The notes beneath the pieces are model-generated. The model made no database searches, was not told the DNA's origin, and saw nothing but the letters and a program-made list of their open reading frames with translations. Positions 543 through 52,230 of a stretch of 64,000 nt of DNA are shown one piece after another. Each line of letters begins with the position of its first letter. Position 1 is the first letter of the stretch. Source of the DNA: Okamejei kenojei. Its lineage: Eukaryota. The DNA is taken from positions 42,656,001 to 42,720,000 of the forward strand of contig CM069135.1 in NCBI GenBank assembly GCA_035221665.1, in the 5' to 3' direction. Made by a program: the position numbers and the translations under genes.

Positions 543-675
543 ATGTCTGAAAATGAGTCTCGACCCGAAACATCGCCTATTCCTTCACTCCATAGATGCT
601 GCCTCACCCGCTGACTTTCTCCAGCATTTTTGTCTACCTTCGATTTTTCCAGCATCTGCAGTTCTTTCTTAAACA
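543..675 (+). mobile_element. Penelope-terminal mini-element with degenerate hammerhead-like core
   Basis: CTGAAAATGAGTCTCGACCCGAAACATC...CCAGCATCTGCAGTTCTTTC, homologous to the Penelope terminus at 29100-29203. Confidence 0.75.
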
Positions 676-1980: not shown

Positions 1981-4900
1981 GTGAGGCGCCGCGTCAGCGC
2001 CAGCGCCAGCGCTGTCCCCCCGGCCCCGGCCCCGGCCCCTTGAGACCAGCCGGTCGGCCGCGGCTTCCCCACCCCCGGGGATCTGGACCCCACAGTCCCA
2101 ACTCGCTCGTCCGCCATATAACCATATAACCACTACAGCACGGAAACAGGAGGAGGTGGTGTATCTCGGCCCTTCCAGTCCGTGCCGACCATTTGTTTTC
2201 CCCTAGTCCCATCTACCTGCACTCAGACCATACCCCTCCATTCCCTTCACGTCCATATACCTATCCACTTTACTCTTAAATGTTAAAATCGATCCTGCCT
2301 CCACCACTTCTGCTGGAAGCTCATTCCACACAGCCACCACCCTCTGAGTAAAGAAGTTCCCCCTCACGTTACCCCTAAACTTCTGTCCCTTAATTCTCAT
2401 GTCATGCCCTCTTGTTTGAATCTTCCCTACCCTCAATGGGAAAAGCTTATCCACGTTAACTCTGTCTATCCCTTTCATCATTTTAAAGACCTCAATCAAT
2501 ATGTTGGAAGGAAATGCCTTGGAAGGCAGTGGAGGCCAATTCTCTCCTCTGGATGCTTTCAAGAGAGAGCTAGATAGGGCTCTTAAAGTTAGCGGAGTCA
2601 GGGGATATGAGGAGAAGGCAGGAACAGGGTACTGATTGGGGATGATCAGCCATGATCACATTGAATGGCGGTGCTGGCTCGAAGGGCCGAGTGGCCTACT
2701 CCTGCACCTATTTTCTATTGTCTAACTGCAGATGCTGGTTTAAACCGAAGATAGACACAAAATGCTGGAGTAACTTAGCGGGACAGGCAGCGTCTCTGGA
2801 GAAGGAATGGGTGACGTTTCTGGTCCAGACCCTTCTTCAGACCCTTCTTCTGTATCTGAAGAAGAGTCTCGACCCGAAACGACTCCCACTCCTTCTCTCC
2901 AGAGATGCCGCCTGTCCCGCTGAGTTACTCCGGCATTTTGTGTCTGTCTATTCTGTTACAAACGTTTATATCAGTTGATGTTCAAAAATTAGAGCAGGTT
3001 CTTGATCAGTGGACAAAGAAATAGTTAAAATGAATTTCATGCAGTGATGAGCGAGATGTTGCAAAGTCAGACCAGGTCAGGTGAATGCCAGGACACTGGG
3101 GAGTGCTATAAAGCTGAGCATTCTAGGAGTCCAGGACATTGTTCCTTGATAGTAGCGTAACCAGTATCTAGAGTGATCAAGAAAGCTTTTGGTAAAATTA
3201 CATTAATCACTCAGTGTATTGAGTTTAGAAGTTGGGATAGACGCAGAATGCTGGAGTAACTCGGCAGGACAGGCAGCATCTCTGGAGAGAAAGAATGGGT
3301 GACGTTTCGGGTCAAGACCCTTGTTCAGATTGACGTTGCCTGGCCCACTGAGTTACTCCAGCATTTTGTGTCTATCTTCGATTTAAACCAGCACCTGCAG
3401 TTCCTTCTGACATATAGAAGTTGGGATGTATGTTACAGTTGCACAAGTTGTTGGTGAGGCCACATTTGTAGTATTGTTCAGGTTTTGTCACCATGCTATA
3501 GGAAGGATGTTGTTAATCTTCAAAGAGTGCAGCAACGATTTGAGGATCTTGCCAGGATTCAAGGCTCTGAGCTATAGAGAGAGATTGGACAGGCTAGAAC
3601 TTTATTCCTTGGAGTGCGGGAGAATGAGAGATGATCTTAAATTGTATAAGTAGCTGCTCAGAATCTTTTACCCAGAATAAGGCAATCAAGAACCAGAGGA
3701 CATAGGTTTAAGGTGGGAGGGGAAAAGTATAATAGGAACATCGGAGGCAATTTGTTCCACATAGAGATAATGGGTTTTTGGAATGAGCTGCTGGAGGAGG
3801 TAGTCGAGACGGTACTATAAAGACATTTAAAAGGTATTTGGACAGGTACATGGATGGGAAAGGTATAGAGGGATATGGGGCAAATGTGGGCAAGTAGAAC
3901 TAGTGTCACATGTACTGAGTTGGGCAAGCTGGGCCGAAGGGCTTTTCTGCTCTGTGACTCTATAAATGCTGCAAGCAAGAGAAATGTTTGTATGGAGTAT
4001 TACAGCATGGAAATGGGCCATTCGGCAAAATATGTTCATGCTGACCAAGATGCCCTATGTAAGCTGGTCCCATTTATCTACGTTTGGCCTATATCCCTCT
4101 AAACCTTTTCTATTCATGTACCTATCTAAAGGTCTTTTAAATGTACCTGCCTCAACTACCTCCTGGCAGGTTGTTACATATACCCACCACAAAAAGTTGC
4201 CCTTTGGGTCTTTATTAAACCCTACGCTTCTCACCTTAAACTTATGTTCTCCACTTGATTTCGTTATCCTGTGGAAACGACTGAGCATTCCCCTATCTAT
4301 TCCCCTCAAGATTTATAAACATCTCTTTAACATATTCCGTCAGCCTCTTGCACATCAAGCAATAAAGTCCCAGCCTGGCCAAGCTCTCTGTATAGATCAG
4401 GCCCTCAAGTCCTGGCAAAATGCTCATAAATTTCTGCACCCATATCAGCTTAATGGCATCTTTCCTATAACAGGGTGATCAAAACTGAACACAATACAAG
4501 TCTGGCCTCAGCAATCTTGCGCAACTGTAACAAAACATATCAACTTCTTTCATCAATCCCTGACAGATGAAGGCCAATGTGCCAAAAGCCACCTTCACCA
4601 CTGTATCCACCTGTGAAGCTGCTTTCAGGGAACTATGTACTCCTAGATGCCTCTACACTACAACACTCCCCAGGGTCCTGCCCGCATTTGACATCCCAAA
4701 GCGCAACGTGAATTAAACTTCCATTAGCCATTTCTTGGCCCACTTGCCCTGCTGATCCAGTTGCCTCTGTAATTCTTCGTAAATGTCTTTATAGGTCAAC
4801 GATACCACCTATTATGCTGTTATCTGCAAACTTACTAACCATGCCTTAACATTCTCATACAAATCATTGATGTCGATGACAAATAACAGTGTGCCCGGCA

Positions 4901-7900: not shown

Positions 7901-10900
7901 CTGACTACGCCTGTCTTTCCAAATTCATATACATCTTATCCCTCAGAATACTGCAGATGTTAGAGGTTTTTCTTTGCAGCTTTTCTAAAATAGAGACACG
8001 GTGTTAGCTACCCTCCAGTCTTACACCTCCTCTGTGTCTAACGATGATTTCCACATCTCAGAAAGAACTGCTGGAATTTGTTGTCCAGCTCACAACAGTG
8101 TTCTTGGATATATCTGATCAGGCCTGAGCTATTTTTCTACTTTAATATCTGTCAGAATGTCCAGCACCCCCTGATCTGTAAAGCGGACTGTCTGCAAAAT
8201 ATCTCAATTAATATTCCCAAGTTTCCTAGTCCATGTTTTTTTTTCTGCAGTAATAACTGAGGAGACAAGTTTGAGGATGCAATTAAGCTGGAATAAGGAT
8301 GTTGTCAAGCTTGAAAGAGTACAGAGAAGATTTCTAAGCATGTTGCCAGGGGCTGTGTACCTGACCTATAGGAAGAAGTTGGGCAGGCGTGGACTATTTC
8401 CTGGAGCGCAAGAGGCTGAGGAATAATCTTACAGATGTGTATAAAATCATGATGGAAATAGATAGGGTGAATCATCGTAGTCTTTTACCCAGTGTAGGGG
8501 AATTAAGATCCAGAGAACATAGGTTTAATAGTGGGCGGGCGCGACTGACGTTGCAGCGGCCCCTACAGCCTGTCTGTCTTTTTTTGTTTTTTGTCTAGTT
8601 AAATGTAGTTGTTTGTGTTTTTTTTGTATTGTTTTCTAACTGTGTATATGTGGGGGGTGGGGGGGGGGAAGGGGGAAACATTTTTAATCTCTTCCCTGCA
8701 CGGGAGACCTGACTTTTTCCCCTGTCAGGTCTCCGTTGGGGCCTGGTGCCGTGGAGCGGCCTCCGACCGGGACGACCTGGGGGCTCCAGTCGCGGAGCTG
8801 AGAGCTCACCGTCGTGGGGCTGGCCGGCCTCGGAGCGTGGGGAGCGGTGGTGGGTGGCCGCTGCGGCCCGACTCCGGGCTCCATTTCCGGCTGCTGCCCG
8901 ACTCCGGGGCTCCAGCTCCAGCTCCGGCCCGACTCCGGCTCCAGCTCCGGCCCGACTCCGGGGCTCCAGCTCCGGCCCGACTCCGGGGCTCCAGCTCCGG
9001 CTCCAGCTGCGGCCCGACTCCGGGGCTCCGGCTCCAGCTGCAGATTGCTGACGGTGGACTGTTGGGATGTCGGGAGCTCACGGGTCCGGGTGGGAGACCG
9101 CTCTCCGGAGCTCCGCAACACAACTTCTCCAGCCCGTGTCGCGGGGTTGGAACGACCCGGAGCGGGGCCGAGCATCGCCCGGCGCAGCTTTAATGGCTGC
9201 GGGACATTCCAGCGCCCGCCGGGGGCTCCAACTTTGTGACTTTGGGCCTGGAGCGGGGCCGTACATCACCCGGCGCGGCCTCAATGGACATGGGACTTAA
9301 CACCGCCCGCCTGGGGCTTCGACATCGGGAGAGAGATGGTGCGGGGGAGAGAGAAGAACTTTGCCTTCCATCACAGTGAGGAGGAGATCCACTGTGATGG
9401 ATGTTTGTGTGAATTTAATTGTTTGCATGTTTTTCTATGAATTGTTCTGTTTGTTTGTTTGTATGGCTTGTAGAAACGGAGTTTCGTTCGAGCCTCTCTG
9501 AGGTTCGAATGACAAGCAATAAAATCAAAAAAATCAAATCAAATCAAAGGTGAGAAGGGAAAAGTTTAATAGGAACCTGAGGGGCAACTTTTTCACACAG
9601 AGGGTGGTAGGTATATGGATAGAGCTGCCAGAGGAGGTAGTTCAGGCAGGTACTGTGGCAACATTTCAAAGACATTTGGACAGGTACATGGATGGGAAAG
9701 GTTTAGAGGTATATGGGACAAACATAGGCAGGTGGAACTACTGTCAAGGGGGCATTTTGGTTGGCAGGTTGAAGTTTGGCCGAAGGGCCTGTTTCCACAC
9801 TGTATGACTCCATGACAGTAAATATCCATTGAAGAACTTGTCCACTGTGGCTCCACAGTCCCGAACCGAAATGCTAGTCATAGGGTGATACAGTGTGGAA
9901 ACAGGCTCTTCAACCCAACTTGCCCATGTCCCAGCTACACTATTCCCACCTGCCTACGTTCATATCCTACCAAACCAATCCTATCCATGTACCTGTCCAA
10001 CTGTTTCTTATATGTTGGGATAGTCCCAACATATTACCCCTCAGATTCCTATTAAATCTTTTCTCCTTTACCTTAAACCTATGTCCTCTGGTCCTCGATT
10101 TACCTACTCTGGGCAAGAGACTCTGCATCTACCTGATCTATTCCTCTCATAATGTTATACACCTCTCTAAGATCACCCCTTATCCTCCTGTGCTCCAAGG
10201 AATAGAGTCCCAGCCTACCCAACCTCTCCCTATAGCTCAGACCCTCTAGTCCTGGCAACATCCTCGTAGATCTTCTCTGTACCATTTCCAACTTGATACA
10301 TCTATCCTATAACACAATGCCCAGAACTGAACACAATACTCTAAATATGGCCTCCCAAATATCTCAGACAACTGCAACATGAACTCCCAACTTCTATACT
10401 TAATACTCTGACTGAGGAAGGCCAATGTGCCAAAATACTTTTTGACCACCTGATCTACCTGCAACTCCACCTTCAAGGAACCTGCACTCCTAGATCCCTC
10501 TGCTCTATAACACTCTCCAGAGCCGTACCATTCACTGTGTTTGTCCTGCCCATGTTAAACTTCCTAAAATGCAACACCTCACATTTCTCTGTATTACATC
10601 CCATCAACCATTCCTCAGCCCACCTGGCCAATCGATCTGATACAAATTTAAATTATCTGCAAAACCACCCACTTTTGTATCATCTGCAAACTTGCTAATC
10701 TTGCCGTGTATGTTCTCATCCAAATCATTTATATAGATGTCAAACAATAGCCCAGCAACGAACCCTGAGGCATACCACTAGTCACAGGTTACCCATTCTT
10801 TTTCTCAAGTGATGTTCCTTGACCCGCTGGGTTAGTCCAGCACTTTGTGTCTATCATAGGTGACAATTTGGGTTTCTAAAGGGCCTGATTCTCTCTCAGG

Positions 10901-13900
10901 TTATCCTTTTTCCCCTTAATATATTGACATAATATTTTAGATTCTCCTGAATCTTATCTGTCTGAGCTATCACTCCCTTTTTGCCCTGTGGATTTCCTTC
11001 TTATGGATGCTCATCAATCCCCTATACCCCTCTAGGGATACACTTGATTCCAGCTGCCCTTCTTCCACCTTCCTTGTTCTTCACTTTAATAGGAACATGA
11101 ATTCTCACTATAACCCTTTTAAAACCATTACAATTTTGGGGCATACCTTTGCCCGCAAACAACTCGCTCCAATTAACCTTTGCCAGTTCCTGTTTAATAC
11201 CATAAAAATTGGCCTTGTCCCAACACATAACCTTAACATGTGGACCAGCCCTGTCCTTATCTATAACTATTTTAAAGCTAATAGAACCGTCATTGCTAAT
11301 CCAAAAGGTTCTCCCACTGACACTTCAGTCACTTGCCCTGCCCAATTCCCAAAGAGTAGGCCAAAACTTTCCTGCTTCCTTGTAAGGCCCTCTACATAGA
11401 TTGTCTGAGGAAACTTTCATGAATGCACTTGACAAATTCCACCCGCTTCTAAGCTCTTGGCACTATGGTAATCCCAGTCTATATTGGGAAATTTAACATC
11501 CCCTACTATAACAGCCCTGCAATCTAAGTTCTATGCAGTTTTAATCCAAGTGTACCATTTATAGTGGGGTTTTTTAACTTAAAATATAACATGCTTGCTT
11601 TTAGGCTTTCAGCATACCTGTTATACAGATTGTATACGAAACACTCAAGGACCAGGAAGAGGGCAAGAAGGGGAAATCATCTGTCAAGACCGGTGGTGCA
11701 GGTAATGATGCTAAATTAATTTGTGAAATGAGCTTTGTGTCCAGAAAACTTACTGCTCCAAGTACTCTGATCAGTGCCCTCCATAATGTTTGGGACAAAG
11801 ACCCTTCATTGATTTATTTGCCTTTGTACTCCACAATTTGAGATTTTTAATAGAAAAATCACATGTGGTTAGAGTGCACAGAATGTCAGATTTTAATAAA
11901 GGGTATTTTTATACATTTTCGTTTCACAATACACAATACAGTGTACCATAATGTTTGGGACACATGGCTTCACATGTGTTTGTAATTGCTCAGGTGTTTA
12001 ATTGCCTCCTTAATGCAGGTATATGAGAGCTCTCAGCTAATGGTCTTTCCTCCAGTCTTTCCATCATATTTGAAAACTTTTATTGCTGTTTATCAACATG
12101 AGAACCAAAGTCGTGTCATTGAAAATCAAAGTAGCCATTATGAGTGAGAAACAAGAATACAACTGTAAGAACATCAGCCAAACCTTAGGCCAAACAAAAT
12201 CAACTGTTTGGAACATCATTAAGAAGAAAGAGAGCACTGGTGAGCTTACTAATCGCAAAGGGACTGGCAGGCCAAGGAACTCCTCCACAGCTGATGACAG
12301 AAGAATTCTCACGATAATGAAGAAAAATCCCCAAACACCTGTCCGACAGATCAGAAACACTCTTCAGGAGTCAGTTGTGGCTTTGTCAATAACCACTATC
12401 CGCAGAATACTTCATGAACAGAAATACAGAGGCTACACTGCAAGATGCAAACCACTGGTTAGCCGCAACAATAGGATGGCCTGGTTGCAGTTTGTCAAGA
12501 AGTACATAAAAGATCAACCACAGTTCTGGAAAAAGGTCTTGTGGACATAGGAGACAAAGATTAATGTATATCAGAGCGATAGCAAGAGCAAAGTATGGAG
12601 GAGAGAAGGAACTGTCCAAGATCCAAAGTGTACTACCTCGTCTGTGAAACATGGTGGTGAGGGTGTTATGGCCTGGGCATGTATGGCTGCTGAATCTTAT
12701 CTTCATTGATGATACAACTGCTGATGGTAGCATAATGAATTCTGAAGTGTATAGACATATCCTATCTGCTCACGTTCAAACAAATGCCTCAAAACGCATT
12801 GGCCGACAGTTTATTCTACAGCAAGACAATCTCCTGATCTGAACCCAATTGAGCATGCCTTTTATATGCTGGAGAAAACTGAAGGGGACTAGCCCCCAAA
12901 ACAAGCAAAAGCTAAAGATGGTACACAAAAGGCTGGAGAAACTCAGCGGGTGCAGCAGCATCTAAGGAGCGAAGGAGATAGGCGACGTTTCGGGTCGAGA
13001 CCCTTCTTCAGCTAAAGATGGCTGCAATACAGGCCTGGCAGAGCATCACCAGGGAAGGCACCCAGCAATTGGTGATGTCCATGAATCGCAGACTTCAAGC
13101 AGTCATTGCATGCAAAAATATGCAACAAAATACTAAACATGACTACTTTCATTTACATGGCATTGCTGTGTCCCAAACATTATGGTGCCCTGAAATAGGA
13201 GGACTATGTATAAACACTGCTGTAATTTCTACATGGTGAAACCAAAATGTATAAAAATGGTGTTTATTAGAATCTGACAATGTGCACTTTAACCACATGT
13301 GATTTTTTTTTTCTATTACAAATCTCAAATTGTGGAGTACAGAGGCCAATAAATAAATGATGGGTCTTTGTTCCAAACATTATGGAGGGCACTGTATATT
13401 TGTGTGACAATGAATTGCAAATAAATATGTTTAAAATTGGAACGTAACGTGTCATTTCTAACTTGATTCATTCCCTTGTTGCATTTATCAGTTTTAACCC
13501 CCCATGATGTTACAATAGCAGATTGCTTTTGAATTGTTTTTAGTTCATTTTAAAAAAACTTTTAGCTGTTGATATCTTACACGTTTAAGCTTTGTAAGAA
13601 AAGTGCTCTAAAATACTGAAGGTAATTCAGAAAAAGAAATGAGATTCCTCCTTTAAACTGATCAGTGAAACCACTGAATTTTTATGAAGATTTAGAAAGG
13701 TTTCATTTGGACAGAGGTTACCTTCACTTTCAAAATATTCCATGTTTGAAACTTAAATTATTTTATTCAGATGTGTCGGTAATGAAAGGTACTATCATCT
13801 ATATGAAATTACTTACATTTTATAACATTTTCAGTACGTGTTTTATTATCTTTGTGCCTTAGTGTTCAATAAATGGCAGATGAATCCCTATGACAGAGGA

Positions 13901-16900: not shown

Positions 16901-19900
16901 CTTATGACCTTATCATAGGACTAATGACTTCACTTCTCTTCCTGTCCTATCAAATCAAACCTTGTCATTGTTGAACACATTAAAGAGGGGATTTGTGAAT
17001 TGATAAAAGCACAGCTCAAATGTGGACAAGAGGGACTCATGTAGATGGAGCATCTTGGTCGGCAAGAGCAAGTTGGGCTGAAGGGGCTTTTTCCTTGCTG
17101 ACAGCCATGTGTAAATCCGAAGTTAATAATCAATCTGCATTAATACAATTAATACTTACAAAATAGTTATATTAACTACTGATTAATTTTTCTTTAACCA
17201 GGAAAAGATCTTGGTCACGCTTTTGATATTCCTTCACATCTAAAGAACCAAGTTTTCTATGCATCATGTGTTTTAAAGGTAATTTTCCAAATTAATTTTT
17301 GGAAAAGAAAAATCCGGAAAACATTTGTAATAAACAAAAAATTATTGTTGTTGCATCGTAGAATGCTGAGCTCAAATTTAACTTTGGTGAAGAAGAATTC
17401 AAATTCCCTCCGAAAGACGGTTATCAGGCAATAGATAAGGCAGCAGATGACCATGTTGTAAAGTCACAGCATACTGGTATGTGATCGGTAACTTCTTGAT
17501 TTACTTAAGTGTCAAGTAATTTAAATGATTCAGAAACTATTCTTTAATGTGTGTATATATGAGTGAGATCTGCTCTAAAGAGCATTGATAAAGAGTAGAG
17601 AGCATTCCAGTCCTTTTTGGACCCAAACTAGGGATTTTGGGAATGATTTCATAAAATGGGATTAACGTGGTTGAAACAGATGAAAGTTAGAGGACAATGC
17701 TGGAATTCCCAACCTCAATAATGATCTTAACATGATGTGTTTTTACAAATAACCTCACCTTTGGATAGATCTATGGTTTGGGTTTATTATTGTCAGGTCT
17801 ACCAAAATACAATGAAAATACAATGCCTGCTATCCATCAAATCAGATTGTATTAACCACAAATAGAAGTAAGCCAAATTGAGTACAATAGATAGAGCAAA
17901 GGGGGAGATACAGAAGTGAAGAATCTAGTTCTCAACAGTGTAGTGCATCAGTTTCAGAGACAAAATCCAATGTATTCAATTAAGTAAAATTACCCCAGCT
18001 TATGGAATGACTGTTCAATAGCCTGATAATAGTGGGGAAGAACATGTCTGGAAAGGGAAAATAATTAATACAAATTATTTTATCATATAGCTGCATTTTA
18101 ACTCTTGGAGGTGTGTTCTCACTATGCAGTTGACTAGAAATATATCTACAGCTTTTGCTAATCGGCATAATTAAATTCATTCTTTTCAGGGACTGCAACA
18201 GTGGGTCAAACTAAAAACCTGCCAAATGCTCCAAAAGCTCTCATTATTGAACCATCCAGGGAGTTGGCCGAACAAACCCTCAATAATGTCAAGCAATTCA
18301 AGAAAAACGTTACTGATCCCAAGCTTAGGTAACAATTCTTTCCCCTCTTTCTTGTCCCTGTATAAATGTGCTTGTCTTTCTTTGCTTGCTCCACGATGCT
18401 CTCCAGAGTTGCCACCAAATAATATCTTTGATAGGGTGATTAATGTTGCTTTGTTCACCCATTATCTTGAGTTATTTAATATTGTTCCTTTCATTTCTGT
18501 AGCTGAACTGTGCTGTATCATCGCAAATTTGACTGCTCCACCTCATTTCTCTTGTGTTTCATTTTCTCCGAAGATGTCAAACACTACCCCGGCAAATCTC
18601 CCTCTCATGTGTAAGAAAGAACTGTAATGCTGGTTTAAATCAAAGGTAGACTGTCTGAATAAGGGTCTCGACCTGAAACGTTGCCCATTCCTTCTCTCCT
18701 GCGATGCTGCCTCACCCGCTGTTACTCCAGCTTTTTGTGTCAATCTCCCTCTCATGCCAGGCTCCAATATTCATTCCAGTGAATCCAGAGAAATCAGTAT
18801 ATATTACTTTGCGATGTAATTCTGAAAGATCAAGGCGTCTTCAAAAATACATCTTTAATATTTCTTGATATGTTCAGCCTCTTCTATCTTTTACTGAGAA
18901 CATACATACATAGAAATGCAAATTTTAGTGAAATATATAAGAAATGTGTAGATTAATTTCCAATTGCCCTACAGGTAAATGCCAGCTCAACCATCGGGTA
19001 ATATAATCGTCCTTCCTGAATAGGTGGGGTTTTTTTTTGTCCTGGGAAACTTCTAATTATTCCCTGTGCATGTCTGTATTCCTTAGTTCTGCTTTTTCTT
19101 TTGTTTTAGGGAACTCCTAATTATCGGTGGTGTGTCTGCAAAGGATCAGCTTTCTGTCCTGGATCAAGGAGTAAGTTTTCCACTGCTCTTCAGAGATGAG
19201 AATGTTTTTTATCTATTTCCCTGAAAATGTCAGCAGAAAAAAGGCATGAACCGCCTCCAGTTTAAATTCAATTTGGAATATTTTGGAGGACCAAGAAACC
19301 AAGAACCAATTCTCCATGAATTAAACAAATATTTTTCAGTTGAGGTATTCAGATGTTATTCTTGTAAAGAATGTGACTATACACTGTGGAGAATTGGCTG
19401 TAAAGCATACGAGAGGATTTCAATTCATGAATAGTGTAAAGCACCTTAAAATGTTACTGAAAAAAAATAGTGGTTCAGCCCTCAATTTTATCTTTATATA
19501 GTAATTTGTAGATGAATGGATGCAATTGAAGTTCATCATTGATATATTCTTGTCAATTCTGCAGGTAGATATTGTTGTTGGAACTCCAGGAAGATTAGAT
19601 GACCTTGTCTCAACAGGAAAACTTAATCTCTCCCAAGTTAGGTTCTTTGTGCTGGATGAAGCTGTGAGTAATCAGTCATAATTATTTTATTAATCCTAAT
19701 TGCTATTTTCAGTGGTGTACTCCTATGGGTTCATAGCCCATCCTCTGTGACTGTCAGTAAATCTACATTGTTATTGAATCCATTAGGTAAATATTGAACC
19801 TGAGGCCCCAATCCAAAATTGTGCCTTCTTATTCCCCCCAACCCTATCTGTCTTGTGATTCCGGCCAGGCTTGATCTCAGCACTCCTGAGAATGTCTCTA

Positions 19901-25900: not shown

Positions 25901-28900
25901 CGTCCCGCCAGGTGAACCTGCCTGGGCTTGCGGGAAATATGGCCAGCGCGGAGAAGCAGTGCTGGTATCCCGTCAGTCCAGTCAGGGCTGTAGGTTAACC
26001 CAGTGAGACAGGCAGAGTTGAGCTGCATTTAGCGCCGGATTGAGCCTCCGAAGCTTCGCGCATGTGAGTGTGAGTGTGCGCATGCGCGCGCGGCTGCCAA
26101 AATATTGTGTCCCCCGGTCCCCTCCATGTTTTGATAGCGAGTTCCGTGCCTGATCAGAACTGTTGTGCAGCAGAAGCATAATTTGCTCCATCCCCCTTGA
26201 GATGAATTCATTCTATTAACACTTTTATTTTGCTTTTGTACCTTTCTGCTAATTTTATTCAATGTCTATTTGTGATTCCAAGGTGCATCAATTATAGAGG
26301 CACGTGGACAGCATAATAGATTTCTGTAGTCAAAAGAAGAAAACATCACAGATACTACAGTTAAATAGCAGTGAGAAAGACATTTCTGCATTTGCTTTCA
26401 AATGTCACAATGTTTTTACAAGAGTTGTTGAAGGAGTAGATGATTTAAAAAAAAATTAAAATCACCTTTCTGTTGATATGGTCTTGGCATTTATTAATAG
26501 CTATTTTAGTGGTTTTCATTTTGCTTAAACATTTCTTTGTTTAATTAACCCTATTGTTTTTCTAGAGATGTGGTCTGAAGCTATTAAAATACTGAAAGGT
26601 GAATATACTATACGTGCAATCAAAGAACACAAGATGGATCAAGCGATCATTTTTTGCAGAACAAAGATTGACTGTGATAACATGGAACAATATTTTATTC
26701 AGATGGGAGGAGGTGAGTTAGTTTTAAAGTATGTTGGTTTGTTCTGATTATTTGCCATGGGATTGAGTTTCTCACATCAAATTAATTCGCTGTTTCAGGT
26801 CCAGATAAAAAGGGACATCAGTTCTCTTGTGTTTGTTTGCATGGTGACAGAAAGCCAAATGAAAGAAAGCAAAACTTGGAACGATTCAAGGTACTTCTGA
26901 GAAATATTTCTGCGAAACCTCCACTTCGGGAACATGTTTCCTGTCTCTAGCGTGTCCAAACCCTTAATAATCTGATGTTTCAATAAGATCCTCTCTCTTT
27001 CTTCTAAACTCCAGAGTATACAAGCCCAGCAGCTCCATTCTCTCAGCATATGACAGTCCCGCCATCCCGGGAATTAACCTTGTAAACCTATGCTGCACTT
27101 CCTCAATAGGAAGAATGTCCTTCCTCAAAGTATGGGACAAAAACTGCACACAATACTCCAGGTGTTAAAGAAGGAACTGCAGATGCTGGAGAATCGAGTG
27201 TACACAAAAGGCTGGAGAAACTCAGCGGGTGCAGCAGCATCTAAGGAGCGAAGGAGATAGGCGACGTTTCAGGTCGAGACCCTTCTTCAGACTGGTCAGG
27301 GATCAGGGAAACGAGAGATATAGACGGTGATGTGGAGAGATAAAGAACAATGAATGAAAGATATGCAAAAAGTATCGATGATAAAGGGAACAAGCCATTG
27401 TAAGCTGTTTGTGGTGGGAAGAGAAGCTAGTGTTCCAGGCCCGAGGGCTGAGGGAGAGGTGGGGAGGGGGGAGACAGCTCAATGTTCAAGCCCAGAAGAT
27501 GCAGACTCCCCAAGCGGAATATGAGGTGCTGTTCCTCCAAACTCTGGCCGTGGAGGAGGACGAGAGGTCGGATGTGGAAGTGACGTCCATGGACGTCCAG
27601 TCACTCTACACCTCCATCCCCCACCCGGTCTCAAAGCCCTCCGGTTCTTCCTCGACCATACCCGTCTGACACCCTCCTCCGCCTAGCGGAGTCCTTACTC
27701 AATAACTTCTCTTTGACTCCTCCCATTTCCTCCAAACACAAGGCGTAGCTATGGGCACACGCATGGGCTCCAGCTACGCTTGCCTCGTTGTTGGGTACGT
27801 CGAACAATCCTTGTTCTCAGCGTACCAGAGCCCCATCCCCGACCTCTACCTCCGTAACATCGACGACTGCTTTGGTGTCATCCTGCACCCACACACAACT
27901 GACTGACTTCATCCATTTCACCACCAACTTCCATCCGGCACTCAATTACACTTGGACCATTTCCGACATTTCCCTACCATTCCTTGACCTCACCATCTCT
28001 ATTGCAGGTGATACACTTCTGACCGACATCCACTTGACTCCCACAGCTACCGGACTACTCTGCTTCCTGTAAGGACTCCATCCCCTATTCCCAATTCCTC
28101 CGTCTACGCCGCATCTGCTCCCCGGTTGAGGTGTTCCACACCAGGTCATCACAATGGCCTCATTCTTCAGAGAACGGGGATTCCCCTCCCCCACTATTGA
28201 TGAGGCTCGCACCAGGGTCTCCTCCATACCCCGCAACACTGCCCTCCCCATTTCCCCCACTCGCAAACAGGGCAGAGTCCCCCTGGTCCTCACCTTTCAC
28301 CCCACCAGCCAGCAAATACAACACTATAGTCCTCCGCCAGTTTCGCCACCTGTGACCCCTCCACTCGCCACATCTTCCCATTTCCCCCCGCCTGCCTTCC
28401 GCAAAGACCGCTCCCTCCGCAACTCCCTTGTCAATTTTTCCCTTCCCTCCCGCTCTACCCCTTCCCCGGGCACTTTCCCTTGCAACCGCAAGAAATGCTA
28501 CACTTGTCCCTTAACCTCCCCCCTCCACTCCTTTCTGGGACCCAAGCAGTCCTTCCAGGTCCGACAGAGGTTCACCTGCACCTCCTCCAACCTCATCTAC
28601 TGCATCCGCTGCTCCAGATGCCAGATGATCTATATCGGTGAGACCAAGCGAAGGCTTGGCGATCGTTTTGCCGAACATCTCCGCTCGGTCCGCAATAACC
28701 AAGCCGACCTCCCGGTGGCTCAGCACTTCAACTCCCCCTCCCATTCCGTATCCGACCTCTCGGGGCCTCCTCCACGGCCAGAGTGAGCAACACCGTAAGT
28801 TGGAGGAACAGCACCTCATGCTTGGGGAGTCTGCATCCTCTGGGCTTGAACATTGAATTTTCTCAATTCTGTTAACCCTTGCTGTCTCCTCTCCTTCCCA

Positions 28901-31900
28901 CCTCTCCCTCAGCCCTCGGGCCCTGGCATTCCCTCTCTCTCTATCTCCCTCCCCCACCCTAGTCGCACTAGCTTCTCATTTTCCCACCACAAACAGCTTA
29001 CAATGGCTTGTTCCCTTTATCATCGATACTTTTTTGCATATCTTTCATTCATTGTTCTTTAACTCTCCACATCACCGTCTATATCTCTCGTTTCCCTGAT
29101 CCCTGACCAGTCTGAAGAAGGGTCTCGACCTGAAACGTCGCCTATCTCCTTCGCTCCTTAGATGCTGCTGCACCCGCTAAGTTTCTCCAGCCTTTTGTGT
29201 ACCCACAATACTCCAGGTGTGGTCTCACTAGGGGTCTGTACAATTGCAGAAGGATCTCTTTGCTCCTATACTCAACTACTCTTGTTATAAAGGCCAACAT
29301 GCCATTCACTTTCCTTACTGCCTGCTGTACCTGCATGCTTACTTTCAGTGACTGTTGAACAAGGACCCCCAGATCCCATTGTACTTCCCCTTTTCCCAAC
29401 TTCGCACCATGTAGATAGTAATCTGCCTTCCTGTTTTTGCTAACAAAGTGGATAACCTCATATTTATCCTAACCTCACGTTAAACTGCATCTGCCACTCA
29501 CCCAACCTGTCCAAGTCACCCTGTATTCTCATAGCATCCTCCTCACAGTTCACACTGCCACCCAGCTTTGTGTCATCTGCAAATTTGCTAATTGTTACTT
29601 TGAATCCCTTCATCTAAATCACTGATCTATATTGTAAATAGCTGCGATCCCAGCACCGAACTTTGTGGCACCCCACTAGTCACAGCCTGCCATTCTGAAA
29701 GCGACCCATTAATCCCTACTCTTTGTTTCCTGCTTGCCAACCAATCTTCTGTCCCTGTCAGCACTCTACCCCCAATACCATGTGCCCTAATCTTGCCCAC
29801 TAATCTCCTATGTGGGACCTTATCAAATGTTTTCTGAAAGTCCAGGTACACTGACTATCCCTTGTCCATTTTCCTAGTTACATCCTCAAAGAATTCCAGA
29901 AGATTAGTCAAACATGATTTCCCCTTTGTAAATCCATGCTGACTCGGACCGATCCTGTTACTGCTATCCAAATGTGCCGCTATTTCATCTTTTATAATTG
30001 ACTTCAACATTTTCCCCACCACCGATGTCAGGCTACCTGGTATATAATTCCCTGTTTTCTCTCTCCCGCCTTTCTTAAAAAGTGGGATAACATTAGCTAC
30101 CCTCCAATCCACAGAACCTGATCCTGAATCTATTATCACCAATGCATCACGATTTCCAGAGCCACTTCCTTAAGTACCCTGGGATGCAGACCATCAGGCC
30201 CTGGGGATTTATCAGCCTTCAGTCCGATCAGTCTACCCAACACCATTTCTTGCCTAATGTGGATTTCCTTCAGTTCCTCTGTCACCCCAGATCCTCTGGC
30301 CACTACTATCTCAGGAAGATTGTTTGTGTCATTCTTATTGAAGACAGATCCAAAGTACCTGTTCAACTCATCTGCCATTTCCTTGTTCCCCATAATAAAT
30401 TCACCTTTTTCAGTCTTCAAGGGTCCAACTTTGGTCTTAACTAATTTTTTCTTCTTCACATACCTAAAGAAGCTTTTACTATCCTCCTTTATATTCTTGG
30501 CTAGCTTACTTTCGTACCTCATCTTTTCTCCCCGTATTGCCTTTTTAGTTCTCTTCTGTTGCTCTTTAAACATTACCCAATCCTTTTGCTTCCTGCTCAT
30601 CTTTGCTACATTGCTTATTTTATTTTTATTTTTATACTGTCCCTGACGTCCCTTGTCAGCCACGGTCGCCTCTTACTCCCTCTTTGGAATGAACTGATCC
30701 TGCACCTTCTGTATTATTCCCAGAAATACCTGCCATTGTTGTTTCACTGTCATCCCCGCTAGGGTATCTTTCCAGTCAACTCTGGCCAGCTCCTCTCTCA
30801 TTGCTCCATAGTCCCCTTTATTCAACTGTAACACCGACACCTCCGATTCACCCTTCTCCCTCTCTAATTGTAGATTAAATTTGACCATATTATGGTCACT
30901 ACCTCCTAATGGCTCCTTAACCTCAAGTTCCTTTATGAAATCCGGTTCATTACATAACACTAACTCCAGAATTGCCTTCTCCCTGGTAGACTCCAATACA
31001 AGCTGCTCTAAGCATCCATCACGGAGGCACTCCCTTTCTTGGGGTCTAGTCCCAACCTGATTTTCCTAGTCTACATGTTGAAATCTCCCATAACAACCGT
31101 AACATTACCTTTACTACATGCCAATTTTAACTCCTGATTCATCTTACACCCTATATCCAGGCTACTGTTTGGGGGCCTGTGGAAAAATCCCATTAGGGTC
31201 TTTTTACCCTTACAATTCCTTAGTTCTATCCACATTGACTCCACATCTCCTGTTTCAATGTCACCCCTTGCAAGGGACTGAATTTCACTCCTCACCAACA
31301 GAGCTACCCCCCCCCCCCCCCCCCCCTGCCCATCTGCCTGTCTTTTCGATGGGAGGTATACCCTTGAATATTCAGTTCCCAGCCCTGGCCCTCTTGCAGC
31401 CATGTCTCTGTAATTCTCATAAAATCATACTTGCCAATTTCTAACTGGGCGTCAACCTCATCCACTTTATTTCTTATACTTCACGCAACACTTTGACCTC
31501 GATATTCACCTCCCCTCTCTCACCGCTCGCAATTGGCCCTGACCTTACTCTCTTATCCATTCTCAAAATTTCCTTCCCATTAATTCGAGAGTCTTTTGTA
31601 ACTTTTCCTGTACTCACTTCCCCTTCAACTCCATCTTCATATTCCCAATTGTGAATCCCTCCCCCCCACTATTTAGTTTAAACCCACACGTGTAGCACTA
31701 GCAAACCTGCCTACCAGAACGTCGGACCCCCTCCAATTAAGGTGTAACCCATCCCTTTTGTACAGGCCACCGCTACCCCAGAAGAGATCCCAGTGGTCTA
31801 TAAATCTAAATCCTTGCTCCCTGCACCAGCCTGTCAGCCACTCATTCAGATCCCCTAGCTCTCTGTTCCTGTCCTCACTAGCATGAGGTACTGGAAACAA

Positions 31901-34900
31901 TCCAGAGGTACCACACTAGAAGTCCTGCATTTCGGTCTTCTTCCTAACTCTCTGAACTCACGTTGCAGAACCTCCTTCCTCTTCTTCCCGATATCGTTTG
32001 TGCCTACGTGCACAACTACTGCCGGCTGTTCACCTTCCCTCTCAAGGATTTTTTTTTTGGCTTGTAACATCTTGAACCTTTGCACCAGGGAGGCAGCAGA
32101 TCATGCTCGCGTCTCGTCTGCTGCCACAATATCTCCTGTCCGCTCCTCGGACAATGGAGTCACCCACCACTATGGCTCTGCCCGACGTCGGTCTCGCCGG
32201 TCGAGTCCCATCTCTAGGATTGGAGCCACCGACGTGTCCGCAGCTCGGACTGGAAGCGTCGTCTCCCCAGACAGTTCCCAAGAGGGCGTACATGTTTTCA
32301 TTGGGCACAGCCACCTGGGTCTCCTGCACTCCACATTTACCACCCTTTCTCTCAGTCACACACCTTTGTTCTTCCTGTATCCTCGGCGTGACAGCCACTT
32401 TAGGTCCTGTCCAGGAAACTTTTGTTTTCCCGGATATCCTCCACATTCTTCCTGTCATGGGCTGAACAGAACTGCATGCAATACTTCAGGTATGGCCTAA
32501 CCAAAGTTTTATGAAGCTGCAACACGACCTCCTGACTCATGAAGGCAAGCGTACCGTCTACCTTATTCCTCTATCTACTTGTTCTATGAAAATGTTCTAT
32601 GTTCAGTTTCTTGCTTAATTTTTTTGTGCTGATATCTTTCACCACTGTTTAAGGCCAAAACTTGCAAGTAGGTATGGTAGAATGTTCAGAATAAGGCAAT
32701 TAAAAAAAAAACATGGAACCATTTAACTGAATATTTTGATTTATTTTTTGGAAAGAAAATTGATGTGAAATTCCTGATCTGTACTGATGTGGCTGCCAGA
32801 GGAATTGATATTCGTGGTGTTCCCTTTGGTAAGTGAAATATATAACAGCTGTGTTGTTACTCTTTAATTTGGCACAATGCTAATTTACTTTTACTTTCAC
32901 ATAGTAATTAACGTGACTCTTCCTGATGAAAAGCAAAACTATGTTCATCGGATTGGAAGAGTGGGAAGAGCTGACAGGTAATTCACTTGTTTTGTAAACT
33001 GCATTTTCATTTCTTTCTTAAGGTTGAAACATTTTTTTAAGTTGCAAAGTAACATTTAATTATCTTTTTAGAATGGGTCTAGCCATTTCCTTGGTGGCAA
33101 CTGAGAAAGAAAAGGTAAAATATTGCACTAATAATATTGTTTTTGCACTAATAATATTGTTTTTGAGTGATTCTATATTATAATATAGAATAAGTGATAA
33201 ACTTTTAATATTAAATAGCTACAATTTTGATTTATCTGACAATTGTTTACAACTTGTGAAAGTTGCAGTGGCTTTTGGACATTGTCTGAGAGTTATATAA
33301 CCTAGTTCCTTGCCTTAAGATCAATCATGTGGAAAACCTTTGGAGAGTATGCTCATTTCATTATGTATTAAGATTAAAATCTCTTTAAAAATCAATGTGC
33401 TGAAAAATGCATAAAATAACAATTAACCTTTGCAAATTCTCTAACTTCTGAAAGGATGACATTGCCTGTACCCATTATTTCTTTCCTATGACTGGCTACC
33501 ATTGTCTCAGTAATTTGTCCAAACCTTTACTTGTTATTTTGTTCTTTAAATGTTTGCATGTCCTTCGTTTTCTTCCCTTTATCAATCTTCAGCTTTGCCA
33601 TTTAATACTGGCTATATCCATTTTTCACTCTCTCCATTCCACAATAAACAGTGGTCATAGAGTCATACGTTGTGGAAACAGGACCTTTGGCCCAACTTGC
33701 CCACACCGACCAACATGTCCCATCTACACTAGTCCCGCATGCCTGTGTTTGGCCCATATCCCCCTAAACCTGTCCTATTTATGTACCAGTCTAATTGCTT
33801 CTTAAATGTCATGATAGTCCCAGCCTGGACTACCTCCTCCGGCAGCTCATTCCATACACCCACCACCTTCTGCACGAAAATGTTACCCCTCGGATTCATA
33901 TAAAATCTTTTCCCTTTCACCTTAAACCTATGCCATTTGTATCTCGATTCCCCCACTCTGTGCAAGAATCTCTGCGTCCAACTAATCTATTCCTCCAATG
34001 ATTTTATACACCTCTATAAAATCACTGCTGCTCCTCCTGCGCTCGAGTCCCAGTCTGCTCAACCTCTGTCTATAGCTCAGACCCTCAAGTCCTGGCAACA
34101 TCCTTGTAAATTTTCTCTGCACCCTTTCCAACTTAACAACATCTTTCCTATAAACATTGTCCCCAATACTGAACATAATACTGTAAATGCCGCCTTAGCA
34201 ACGTCTTATATAACGGCAACATGACCTCCCAACATCTGCACATCTTGCATGTTACATCTTGTGCAATCATCTACAGCAAATAATTTGCACTGAATCGTTT
34301 TTTTTTTCGATTTTCAAAGCTTTAAGACTTTTTTTCAACCAGAAAAAGGAGCTGGCCATTCATGCCTCCCCCATGCAGCTCTGCCATTCACTGAGATCAT
34401 AGTTAATCGTTTAGCTCAGCATCACTTTCCTGCATTAATACTATTTCTCAGGATTCCATTAATATCTAGAAGCTAATGATTAGGTCGGCTACGTATATTG
34501 AGACTGACACCAGACTATATATCTAATGAAGGCAGGCATGAGCTTTGCATCTACCCTATCAAAGTTAACATAGATGCAAACCAGTTAGGTTTTTGTACTA
34601 CTCAATGACACAATATAACATATAACATATAACCATATAACAATTACAGCACGGAAACAGGCCCCCTCGGCCCTTCCAGTCCGTGCCGACCATTTGTTTT
34701 CCCCTAGTCCCATCTACCTGCACTCAGACCATACCCCTCCATTCCCTTCACGTCCATATACCTATCCATTTTACTTTTAAATGTTAAAATCGATCCTGCC
34801 TCCACCACTTCTGCTGGAAGCTCATTCCACACAGCCACCACCCTCTGAGTAAAGAAGTTCCCCCTCACGTTCCCCCTAAACTTCTGTCCCTTAATTCTCA

Positions 34901-40149: not shown

Positions 40150-41780
40150 GAGAATAGACTGATTGCTAATAATTTGCTATGTTTTGTGAACAGGGCATAA
40201 CTGGTGCCTAGTTGGATAAATGCCATTTTTGTAACTTTATTGGAACAGCTTGGTTAAAGGTGCAAAATGGAGTGCAGATCTTCAGTATCCTAGCTAAGAT
40301 GTTGGCTGATCCCCAAGCCTTTGTATAACATGGAAGGAATGAAATTGTTGAAGACTAGCCCAATGGTGAGGATCTCGGAAGTAAGCTGAGATAGATCATT
40401 CAAAGAACTACTAGCTGACCGTGGTCGTGAATGCTTCAGCCTTTCGCAATTGTGCGCTGGGTCATGCCGGCATTGAGGATGGGGTTGTGCTTGGGACTGC
40501 CACCACCTTTTAGTTGTTTAATTGTTCATTTGTGTTGACATGTAGGATTGCATAGCTTTGGTGCTTTGATTGTGTGAGTGTTTAGCTCTATTACAGGTTG
40601 TGTTTGCTCTTTTATCACACATAGAGTCCTGAGCTACAGCATGAATCTGGTTGGCATGTCATTTTTAGAAATGTCTGCTGCAGCTTCCCTGGCTGGATTG
40701 TGGTGTTAGTGATTGCAATGATAGGCCATGAGTTTTCAGATTATGGCGGTGCCCATTTATGCAAATTCTGATGGCCTATGGCACATTATGAATGTCCACT
40801 CTGAACTCTTAAATTTTGAATTTGTCCTGTTCAGCATGACTGCTGTGTCATTTAAAGGAAGAGTGTATCCTTAGTGTTGAGGTGAAATCTGCGGACTTTC
40901 TAGCAATGCCATCGTGAACACATGGCTGCCACAGATTGGCAAGAATGAACACACACATCGGCAAGAATGAAGTCAAGGAGGTTTATTCCATTGTGATTGT
41001 TCACTGTCTGCCACAGACCTATTGGGCACTTTACCCTACTGAACTTGACCATCCAGAGAATGTTCTTCTCTGCCCTTGTAACTTTTGAATCTTCCAAGTG
41101 TTGTTCAACATGGAGCAACATTGAGTGCAGGAAAGAACTGCAGATGTTGGTTTAAATCGAAAGTAGACACAAATTGCTGGAGTAACTCAGCGGGACAGGC
41201 AGTATCTCTGGAGAGAAGGAATGGGTGACGTGTCATGCCGAAACCCTTCATCAGTCTGAAGAAGGGTTTCGGCCCGAAACCTTGCTTATTTCCTTCGCTC
41301 CATAGATGCTGCTGCACCCGCTGAGTTTCTCCAGCACTTTTGACTACCTTCGATTTTCCAGCATCTGCAGTTTCTTCTTGAACAGGAATGGGTGACGTTT
41401 CGGGTCGAGACCTTTCATCAGACTGATGGAACAACATTGATTCAGCTGAGAGAGTGCAATAGGTGGTCTTCTAGAGGAAACGTCCTTGTCCCTATTTCAT
41501 GCAGTTGGTAGATAATTCCCATGGTAACCCACTCCCCCCTGTATACCACTATGCTATTTGCTGTGTTGCGTTCAAGGGGGCAGGAAGTCGCCAGGGAATG
41601 TGATTGAGGAGTCTGGTAGATACATTGTAAGGTTATTGCTTAATCTATCTAGGACTGATCCCAATTTAGACACTACAGCCCAAACAAGGATTTTGCAAGG
41701 TCAATTAGGCTTGGTTGGACATTACTGTGTTCTGTGCTTCCATTGATGCCAAGTTGTTCATCTGTTGTATTTTCTGTTTT
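40150..41780 (-). mobile_element. Ancient, highly degraded APE-type LINE
   Basis: Reverse-strand remnant GINLLDFILA...VHDGIAR resembles the APE endonuclease C-terminal block; boundaries approximate. Confidence 0.4.
41125..41425. mobile_element. Nested pair of Penelope mini-elements
   Basis: Outer TSD ATGGA(G/A)CAACATTGA (41110-24, 41426-40); inner duplication AGGAATGGGTGACGT (41217-31, 41384-98). Confidence 0.85.
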
Positions 41781-42016: not shown

Positions 42017-42205
42017 ATAGACACAAAATGCTGGAGTCACTCAGCGGGACAGGCAGCATCTCTAGAGAGAAGGAATGAGTGACGTTTCGGGTCAAGACCC
42101 TTATTCAGACAAAGTCACAGGGAAAGGGAAACGAGATATAGACGATGATGTAGTGAGATATACAATAAATGAATTAAAAATTTGCAAAAAAGTAGCTGAT
42201 AAAGA
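42017..42205 (-). mobile_element. Penelope 3' terminal fragment
   Basis: Colinear with 27200-27390. Confidence 0.8.
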
Positions 42206-52104: not shown

Positions 52105-52230
52105 CAGTCTGACGAAGCATCTTAACTCAAAACATCACCTATCCATATCCTCCGGTGATATTGCCTGACCCGCTTAGTTACACAGCACTTTGTGTTCGAC
52201 ATAAGATTCCAGCATCTGCAGTTCTTTGTC
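52105..52230 (+). mobile_element. Older Penelope-terminal mini-element
   Basis: CAGTCTGACGAAG...AAAACATCACC...CCAGCATCTGCAGTTC. Confidence 0.65.

What the first reader, a model, noticed from the sequence alone, without database searches (positions are those of the whole stretch)
29105..29150. Hammerhead-ribozyme-like core at the Penelope terminus, repeated about 12 times in the window
Seen: CTGAAGA-A-GGGT-CTCG-ACCY-GAAA-CGTC here, and related copies at ~547(+), 2810-2840(-), 2856(+), 3300(-), 12983(-), 18655(+), 21240(-), 27262(-), 41255(+), 41393(-), 42080(-), 51217(-), 52108(+). Stem II keeps pairing across subfamilies (GGGT-CTCG-ACCC versus GGGT-TTCG-GCCC, giving a UUCG tetraloop). Stem III is reduced to the palindrome ACGT. 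Known: Penelope-like elements carry minimal type I hammerheads that can cleave as dimers. Caveats: there is an extra A after CUGANGA and only ~2 bp of obvious stem I, so this is an atypical variant of unknown activity.
Basis: partly seen in the sequence, partly recalled or inferred. Interest (0 to 1): 0.7.

Follow-up and report, generated by a model that had tools for sequence, protein, structure and literature searches.

The report
Minimal hammerhead in Penelope retrotransposon ends
This motif matches the already described stripped-down self-cutting RNA (hammerhead) of Penelope-like jumping genes and sits in the end repeat of one that has left an estimated million mostly broken copies in this genome; many copies stop just in front of the motif rather than at its predicted cut site, so they were likely copied from uncut RNA.

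Summary
The motif is real: 12 matches in the window (0 by chance) and 62,004 exact pattern matches genome-wide. It lies in the end repeat (pLTR) of a Neptune-type Penelope-like element (PLE). It fits the published consensus of metazoan PLE minimal hammerheads. Stem II shows no two-sided covariation here. Only 14 of 237 sampled copies keep the whole fold, and the focal copy has G10.1-U11.1. The one informative feature is where copies end. In one subfamily the count falls 8% across the GUC cut site but 50% just upstream of CUGA, and ends cluster 2-4 nt before it. Uncut RNA is therefore the likely template, as shown in vitro for an Anolis PLE. Why the ends sit there (transcription start or reverse-transcriptase stop) is unresolved; a cap-G signature failed to replicate. 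Cleavage was not testable. This scan has already reported the same motif and end clustering in other windows of this genome and in another cartilaginous-fish genome. New member of a known kind; low interest.

The parts
29110..29141 (+). Minimal type I hammerhead motif: 2-bp stem I (29110-11 with 29140-41), CUGAAGA 29112-18, extra A 29119, stem II 29120-23/29128-31 with 4-nt loop, GAAA 29132-35, palindromic ACGU 29135-38, predicted cut after C17 at 29139
   Evidence: Sequence; descriptor test; published consensus. Cut site is predicted.
29108..29111 (+). CAGT just upstream of the core; shared by subfamilies whose further upstream sequence differs; the place where most short copies end
29140..29203 (+). 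Downstream pLTR part up to the short 3' end (about +64 from the cut); inferred first reverse-transcription start site
   Evidence: 3' ends of TSD-flanked copies are bimodal, about +61 to +70 and +99 to +101
27580..29203 (+). 5'-truncated, broken direct arm of the PLE: RT remnant, Cys linker, GIY-YIG endonuclease, 3' pLTR
   Evidence: ORFs; Pfam GIY-YIG E=0.00039, below curated cut-off
28130..28786 (+). Open frame with C-X4-CxxC linker and GIY-YIG endonuclease
   Evidence: linker marks Neptune/Nematis per PMC8557442
27166..27559 (-). Inverted arm: pLTR copy with second core (27263-27290) and the about 35-nt tail at its outer end
   Evidence: 96.6% identity over 175 nt to the direct arm
27149..27165 (.). 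Left copy of 17-bp target-site duplication
   Evidence: Sequence
29204..29220 (.). Right copy of 17-bp target-site duplication
   Evidence: Sequence
547..574 (+). Family copy, damaged core
2813..2883 (.). Head-to-head pair of family copies (2813-2840 minus, 2856-2883 plus)
3301..3328 (-). Family copy, damaged core
12984..13011 (-). Short solo copy with perfect core, ending at C3 (stem I lost), 10-bp TSD
18655..18682 (+). Family copy, damaged core
41227..41283 (.).
41394..41421 (-). Family copy, short downstream part
42081..42108 (-). Family copy, damaged core
52109..52136 (+). Old, degenerate family copy

Best explanation
The motif matches the minimal hammerhead consensus of Penelope-like elements and sits in the pLTR of a Neptune-type element; it is predicted to cut after GUC only as a dimer and likely only with protein help, while the genomic copies were likely made from uncut RNA. 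Shown: position in both pLTRs of a full-length copy, about a million short copies (estimate), two fixed 3' ends, TSDs, head-to-head arms, 5' ends clustering 2-4 nt before CUGA and not at the cut. Inferred mechanism: two RNAs pair through ACGU to complete helix III. On naked RNA the fold loses to competing helices, so the element's protein would have to remodel it, as in Anolis. The element protein starts reverse transcription at +64 or +100 on RNA that is still intact across the cut. In about half of the events it ends at the front of the motif, most likely because many RNAs start there (about 50:50 against a structural stop). Most genomic copies are dead passengers.
For: Core, extra nucleotide, palindrome and short stem I all fit the published alignment. 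RT and GIY-YIG lie between two motif-bearing pLTRs 3,941 nt apart in L211. All 11 catalytic positions are invariant across five rough groups; only loop II, one stem-II base and N17 vary. A relaxed descriptor finds 26 hits in 864 kb, all of this family and all with the extra nucleotide, 0 in the reversed control. Step profile in subfamily A: 44,708 / 41,290 / 35,827 / 17,776 / 16,357 matches for probes at +3, -12, -28, -40, -60. 84 of 237 core-independent copies end 26-35 nt upstream of the cut, 19 at it. 18 of 19 non-long copies match upstream for exactly 2-4 nt. Predicted stem II probability 0.04-0.19 by group. Anolis PLE hammerhead cleaves only with protein, mutants do not affect insertion, and two RT starts define the tail (PMC11167929).
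Against: No cleavage data for this family; the public runs laid were contigs only and cannot show RNA ends. No two-sided covariation in stem II. The stretch +14 to +55 is about as conserved among groups (34 of 42 columns) as the core (24 of 28), so conservation does not single out catalysis. The ACGU duplex is weak (-3.1 kcal/mol for a 6-mer) and the modelled II+III dimer is 7 kcal/mol above the best dimer fold even in a 32-nt window. Rfam gives no hit. The cap-G sign of a transcription start did not replicate.
Confidence: 0.8

Rival explanations
1. Vestigial or non-catalytic: the motif descends from a hammerhead but is kept as promoter, splice signal or part of the RNA structure that the reverse transcriptase recognises.
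For: 2-bp stem I, 4-bp stem II; core predicted to pair with the tail end in 34 of 37 subfamily-A copies, duplex -12.0 against shuffled mean -6.4 kcal/mol, 1% reach it. Almost no copies begin at the cut. PLE clades without canonical hammerheads thrive (PMC8557442).
Against: Variation among groups falls only on positions that a hammerhead tolerates. The core:tail pairing is weak outside subfamily A (2 of 13 in B, 3 of 6 in E). Related minimal motifs cleave weakly as dimers or with protein.
Confidence: 0.2
2. Cut-and-circularise: the RNA is cleaved at both pLTRs, ligated into a circle and reverse-transcribed across the junction, as Cervera and de la Pena proposed.
For: It also predicts copies that run through the cut site and partial tandems such as L211.
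Against: A unit-length circle has no end 2-4 nt before CUGA, where half of the copies stop. One true partial tandem among 27 long loci read. No tandem arrays of whole cores were seen in the 800 kb sample (not searched genome-wide).
Confidence: 0.12
3. The 5' cliff is a reverse-transcriptase stop or fold-back site on a longer RNA, not an RNA start: the short palindrome around CUGA or the end of the core:tail helix ends or turns the cDNA.
For: 95 of 237 copies abut an inverted copy and 32 of these also turn at 26-35. The predicted core:tail helix begins at about -30. No cap-G on replication.
Against: Solo copies with adjacent TSDs end at the same place. The cliff appears in the mixed-subfamily sample too, where the tail helix is weak. 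CAGT is conserved although two of its letters are unpaired in stem I, as an initiator-like motif would be (consensus recalled).
Confidence: 0.45
4. The CAG before the core is a 3' splice acceptor, as in D. virilis Penelope, and short copies come from spliced RNAs that carry an upstream exon.
For: Pyrimidine tract plus CAG in all subfamilies. The D. virilis intron ends at the 5' end of helix I.
Against: No shared exon upstream of short copies. No excess of distant TSDs in solo copies: 8 of 74 against 16 of 217 in controls; adjacent TSDs 16 of 74 against 0 of 217.
Confidence: 0.1

Closest known systems
[quoted passage not shown]
   Same: CUGANGAH, G-C first pair of helix II, GAAA, palindromic 15/16 positions, NUH, location in both pLTRs, mostly solitary truncated copies. 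Fugu, cichlid, Xenopus and snake rows have the same CUGAAGAA and CGUC.
   Different: Helix II is 4 bp and helix I 2 bp, the short end of the published range. Copy number about 0.8-1.0 million (estimate) against 4,000-9,000 in coelacanth and Xenopus. No cartilaginous fish in the rows or text seen (supplement file 1 could not be searched).
Anolis Poseidon PAc hammerhead and tail (Frangieh et al. 2024, PMC11167929; seen: parts 1-2 of 4)
   Same: Two reverse-transcription starts about 35 nt apart that define the tail; template uncut at the hammerhead.
   Different: PAc is a Poseidon element whose ORF starts in stem II; here the long frame of L211 opens just after the tail and the protein has a Neptune-type linker. 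Protein-assisted cleavage is shown there, untested here.
Neptune/Nematis EN+ PLEs (Craig et al. 2021, PMC8557442; seen: passages)
   Same: C-terminal GIY-YIG with CX2-5CxxC linker, partial tandems, inverted 5'-truncated arm, 30-40 bp tail at one end.
   Different: No tree was built, so Neptune against Nematis is not separated; TSDs of 9-17 bp are clear here.
Non-LTR retrozymes (Li, Clavereau and Pollet 2026, 10.64898/2026.07.22.740005; seen: part 1 of 5 and passages)
   Same: Non-coding PLE-derived pieces with type I hammerheads; reported in one chondrichthyan genome.
   Different: Retrozymes are tandem arrays with a hammerhead in each unit; these copies are solo or head-to-head.
Dimer-cleaving short-stem-III hammerheads of PLEs (Lunse, Weinberg and Breaker 2016; not held, seen only as a reference and in the review PMC6765202)
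   Same: Palindromic, very short stem III; dimer cleavage proposed.
   Different: Could not be compared; that survey may already include this family.

Membership tests
Metazoan PLE minimal hammerhead (min-HHR) | Core boxes CUGANGA and GAAA with NUH cut site | tested here: met
Metazoan PLE minimal hammerhead (min-HHR) | Unpaired nucleotide between 9 and 10.1 | tested here: met
   26 of 26 descriptor hits have it; listed as conserved
Metazoan PLE minimal hammerhead (min-HHR) | G10.1-C11.1 pair | tested here: met
   68 of 91 copies G-C, 11 G-U; the focal copy itself is G-U
Metazoan PLE minimal hammerhead (min-HHR) | Palindromic 15.1-16.1 stretch in place of helix III | tested here: met
   ACGU in all five group majorities; C-G in 51 of 91 copies, the rest mostly CpG-type changes
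Metazoan PLE minimal hammerhead (min-HHR) | Helix I (type I topology) | tested here: met
   Two pairs, each in 72 of 91 copies; third position paired in 13 of 91; 2-bp precedents
Metazoan PLE minimal hammerhead (min-HHR) | Located in the pLTRs of a PLE | tested here: met
   Both pLTRs of L211
Metazoan PLE minimal hammerhead (min-HHR) | Covariation in helix II | tested here: inconclusive
   Only one-sided changes among close subfamilies
Metazoan PLE minimal hammerhead (min-HHR) | Self-cleavage as a dimer | not testable with these tools
   No raw RNA reads offered
Canonical type I hammerhead (Rfam models) | Rfam match; stable helices I and III with loop-loop contacts | tested here: not met
   0 matches at E<=1; stem I 2 bp, no helix III
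EN+ Penelope-like element, Neptune/Nematis type | RT followed by C-terminal GIY-YIG | tested here: met
   RVT_1 E=7.8e-06 and GIY-YIG E=0.0004 in L211, both below curated cut-offs
EN+ Penelope-like element, Neptune/Nematis type | CX2-5CxxC linker between RT and endonuclease | tested here: met
   C-X4-CxxC in window and L178 frames; definition
EN+ Penelope-like element, Neptune/Nematis type | pLTR, inverted arm, 30-40 bp tail at one end | tested here: met
EN+ Penelope-like element, Neptune/Nematis type | RT phylogeny placing it in Neptune | not tested
   No tree built
Non-LTR retrozyme | Tandem array with a complete hammerhead in each unit | tested here: not met
   Window and 800 kb sample show solo and head-to-head copies; the only tandem units seen lack CUGA and stem II

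The most novel reading that the evidence does not exclude
The element's RNA starts 2-4 nt before CUGA, so its first 130 nt are one switchable module: in the insertion-competent fold the catalytic core is sequestered by pairing with the tail where reverse transcription starts, and the ribozyme fires only when protein remodels it. The million stubs would then be complete reverse transcripts of this leader and a genome-scale map of the RNA start and of both priming sites, and the hammerhead would act as an off-switch that removes RNA from the template pool rather than as a maturation step.
Probability: 0.25. Interest if true: 0.55.

Novelty: new member of a known kind. Interest (0 to 1): 0.25.

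Why it matters
The role of hammerheads in endonuclease-bearing PLEs is stated to be unclear (PMC8557442). A family with tens of thousands of near-identical young copies gives an in vivo record that agrees with the single in vitro study: insertion uses RNA that is intact at the cut site. It also offers a very small natural hammerhead and a sharp, testable 5' boundary. The motif class itself is known, and this scan has noted the same pattern several times already.

Tried and rejected
Rfam scan: no match. Cap-derived extra G at the 5' junction: suggested by 11 of 18 and 7 of 9 solo copies and 3 of 3 single-letter additions. Not replicated in fresh loci: G in 6 of 19 and 7 of 18 solo copies, one lone G among 12 TSD junctions; 38 G, 41 A, 21 T among the first 100 listed matches (hand count). 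Rejected as support. Spliced exon or host-exon capture upstream of short copies: none found. L178 looked like a tandem but is two separate subfamily insertions. Sequencing runs: only Logan contigs, of uncertain RNA status; no ends could be read. Distant hammerhead families for covariation: the relaxed descriptor found none in the fetched DNA. The -159 boundaries are a band-limit artefact of my aligner and mean 'long'. Lunse et al. 2016 could not be read. Literature searches for a cartilaginous-fish PLE hammerhead listed no paper describing one; only listings were seen.

Full report
Observation. The motif is at 29112-29139(+). A 28-letter pattern gives 12 window matches with up to 3 mismatches and none in 100 shuffles. 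The exact degenerate pattern occurs 62,004 times in the 2.76-Gb genome and 0 times read backwards. Rfam finds nothing.

Context. The motif lies 325 nt after an open frame with a C-X4-CxxC linker and a GIY-YIG match (E=0.00039, under the curated cut-off). The insertion has a truncated direct arm (about 27580-29203), an inverted pLTR arm with a second core and the longer tail (27166-27559), and a 17-bp target-site duplication at 27149-27165 and 29204-29220. Walking upstream in the genome gave one full-length partial tandem, L211: pLTR with motif, about 3.9 kb of broken coding sequence with RVT_1 and GIY-YIG matches, pLTR with motif, cores 3,941 nt apart. The linker marks the Neptune/Nematis type (PMC8557442, passages); no tree was built. 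The host looks like a cartilaginous fish; this rests on recall of the repeat and on earlier AI notes, not on a test.

Abundance. A profile built only from the 64 nt after the cut found 297 hits in 80 evenly placed 10-kb stretches of the 21 largest contigs, or about 1.0 million genome-wide; 237 passed score, coverage and edge filters, about 0.8 million. 95 of the 237 abut an inverted copy, so insertion events are fewer. 14 of 237 keep the whole descriptor, 11 with G10.1-C11.1.

Is it a hammerhead? Cervera and de la Pena 2014 (PMC4209133; main text parts 1-2; supplement file 2 part 2) give the consensus CUGANGAH, helix II, GAAA, palindrome, UH. The extra nucleotide is called a conserved feature. 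In 91 of the 237 copies that reach C3 in register, five rough groups share all 11 catalytic positions and differ only in loop II, one stem-II base and N17 (24 of 28 invariant), against 5 of 13 just after the cut; sequence upstream of -4 differs between subfamilies. Against this, +14 to +55 is also conserved (34 of 42), stem II has no two-sided change (U-A 71, U-G 14 of 91), and per-copy non-CpG identity is 856 of 910 in the core against 4,462 of 4,868 downstream, with selection on the core biasing it upward. Membership rests on the match to the published class and position, not on covariation.

Folding. On naked RNA stem II is predicted to form rarely (mean probability 0.04-0.19 by group; 2 of 70 copies above 0.5 with tail). 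In subfamily A the core pairs with the tail end in 34 of 37 copies (duplex -12.0 kcal/mol; 1% of 2,000 shuffles and 0.5% of the element's 18-mers reach it), but in only 2 of 13 B and 3 of 6 E copies. The ACGU dimer helix is weak. This fits the low in vitro activity of related motifs and the protein-assisted cleavage of the Anolis motif (PMC11167929, parts 1-2).

Where copies end. 3' ends of 19 TSD-flanked solo copies fall near +61 to +70 (10) or +99 to +101 (7), two shorter; TSDs are 9-17 bp. This is the known tail, explained by two RT starts. For 5' ends, 84 of 237 copies stop 26-35 nt upstream of the cut, 19 at it, 7 at 36-45 and 28 beyond 45 (old copies can stop early by divergence). Genome-wide, one subfamily-A anchor with 8-letter probes gave 44,708 (+3), 41,290 (-12), 35,827 (-28), 17,776 (-40) and 16,357 (-60) matches: 8% lost across the cut, 50% just before CUGA. 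Caveats: the -12 probe has two degenerate letters, and 6 of the 100 listed -28 matches carry another subfamily's stem (hand count). Of 30 such loci read, 11 were long (one misfiled by the script because of a 1-nt deletion) and 18 of the other 19 matched upstream for exactly 2-4 nt. In 186 distinct copies with an intact CUGA box (random and pattern-found loci mixed), 45 of 65 solo and 36 of 46 inverted copies kept at least GT, against about 4 and 3 by chance. TSDs enclose both arms in 19 of 39 inverted cases, so hairpins are single events.

Reading. Reverse transcription starts downstream of the motif and runs through the cut site, so the template is likely uncut, as in Anolis; a re-ligated circle would also read through but does not explain the cliff. 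The cliff may be an RNA start (CAGT resembles an initiator, recalled consensus; D. virilis Penelope has an internal promoter in its pLTR, PMC2377424, passages) or an RT stop or fold-back at a local palindrome or the core:tail helix. A cap-G signature appeared but failed. Splicing at the CAG found no support. Public runs gave contigs only.

Novelty. Searches (listings) showed no paper on this family, but Li et al. 2026 report retrozymes in one chondrichthyan, Lunse et al. could not be read and one supplement file was not searched. Earlier notes of this scan describe the same motif, uncut-template reading and 5' clustering in this genome and another; I had reached the reading before looking, and they are not independent support. 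Verdict: real, a new member of a known kind, interest 0.25.

Noticed in passing
L109 (hits at 1640-1772, minus), L121 ~8813, L071 ~5962, L074 ~9278: 66-nt tandem units made of the GAAACGUC half of the core plus 58 nt of downstream pLTR, lacking CUGA and stem II, following one complete core; four independent loci of one subfamily, suggesting repeated template jumps back to the GAAA box.
   Followed up: no
window 27263-27290(-) and 29112-29139(+): Both arms of the focal insertion carry the same C11.1-to-U change, so it was likely present in the source element rather than acquired after insertion.
   Followed up: partly
window 26795-27148 and 29221-32500 (minus strand): The PLE is inserted into a decayed LINE whose frames look CR1-like (recalled motifs, not scanned).
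   Followed up: no
L211 4609-4560 (minus): Just after the tail the long N-terminal frame begins; a donor-like AAG/GTATG overlaps the first ATG, and an out-of-frame ATG lies 22 nt after the cut site.
   Followed up: no
L211 3110-4100 (minus): About 300 codons of proline-rich low-complexity sequence between the N-terminal domain and the RT make this element about 3.9 kb; no Pfam match.
   Followed up: no
window 59148 and 59628 (minus): Two identical old, weak family copies 480 nt apart, suggesting a local duplication.
   Followed up: no
loci L224, L263, L273, L043: Short duplications of target sequence between the TSD and the 5' end of solo copies, a junction-repair signature.
   Followed up: no
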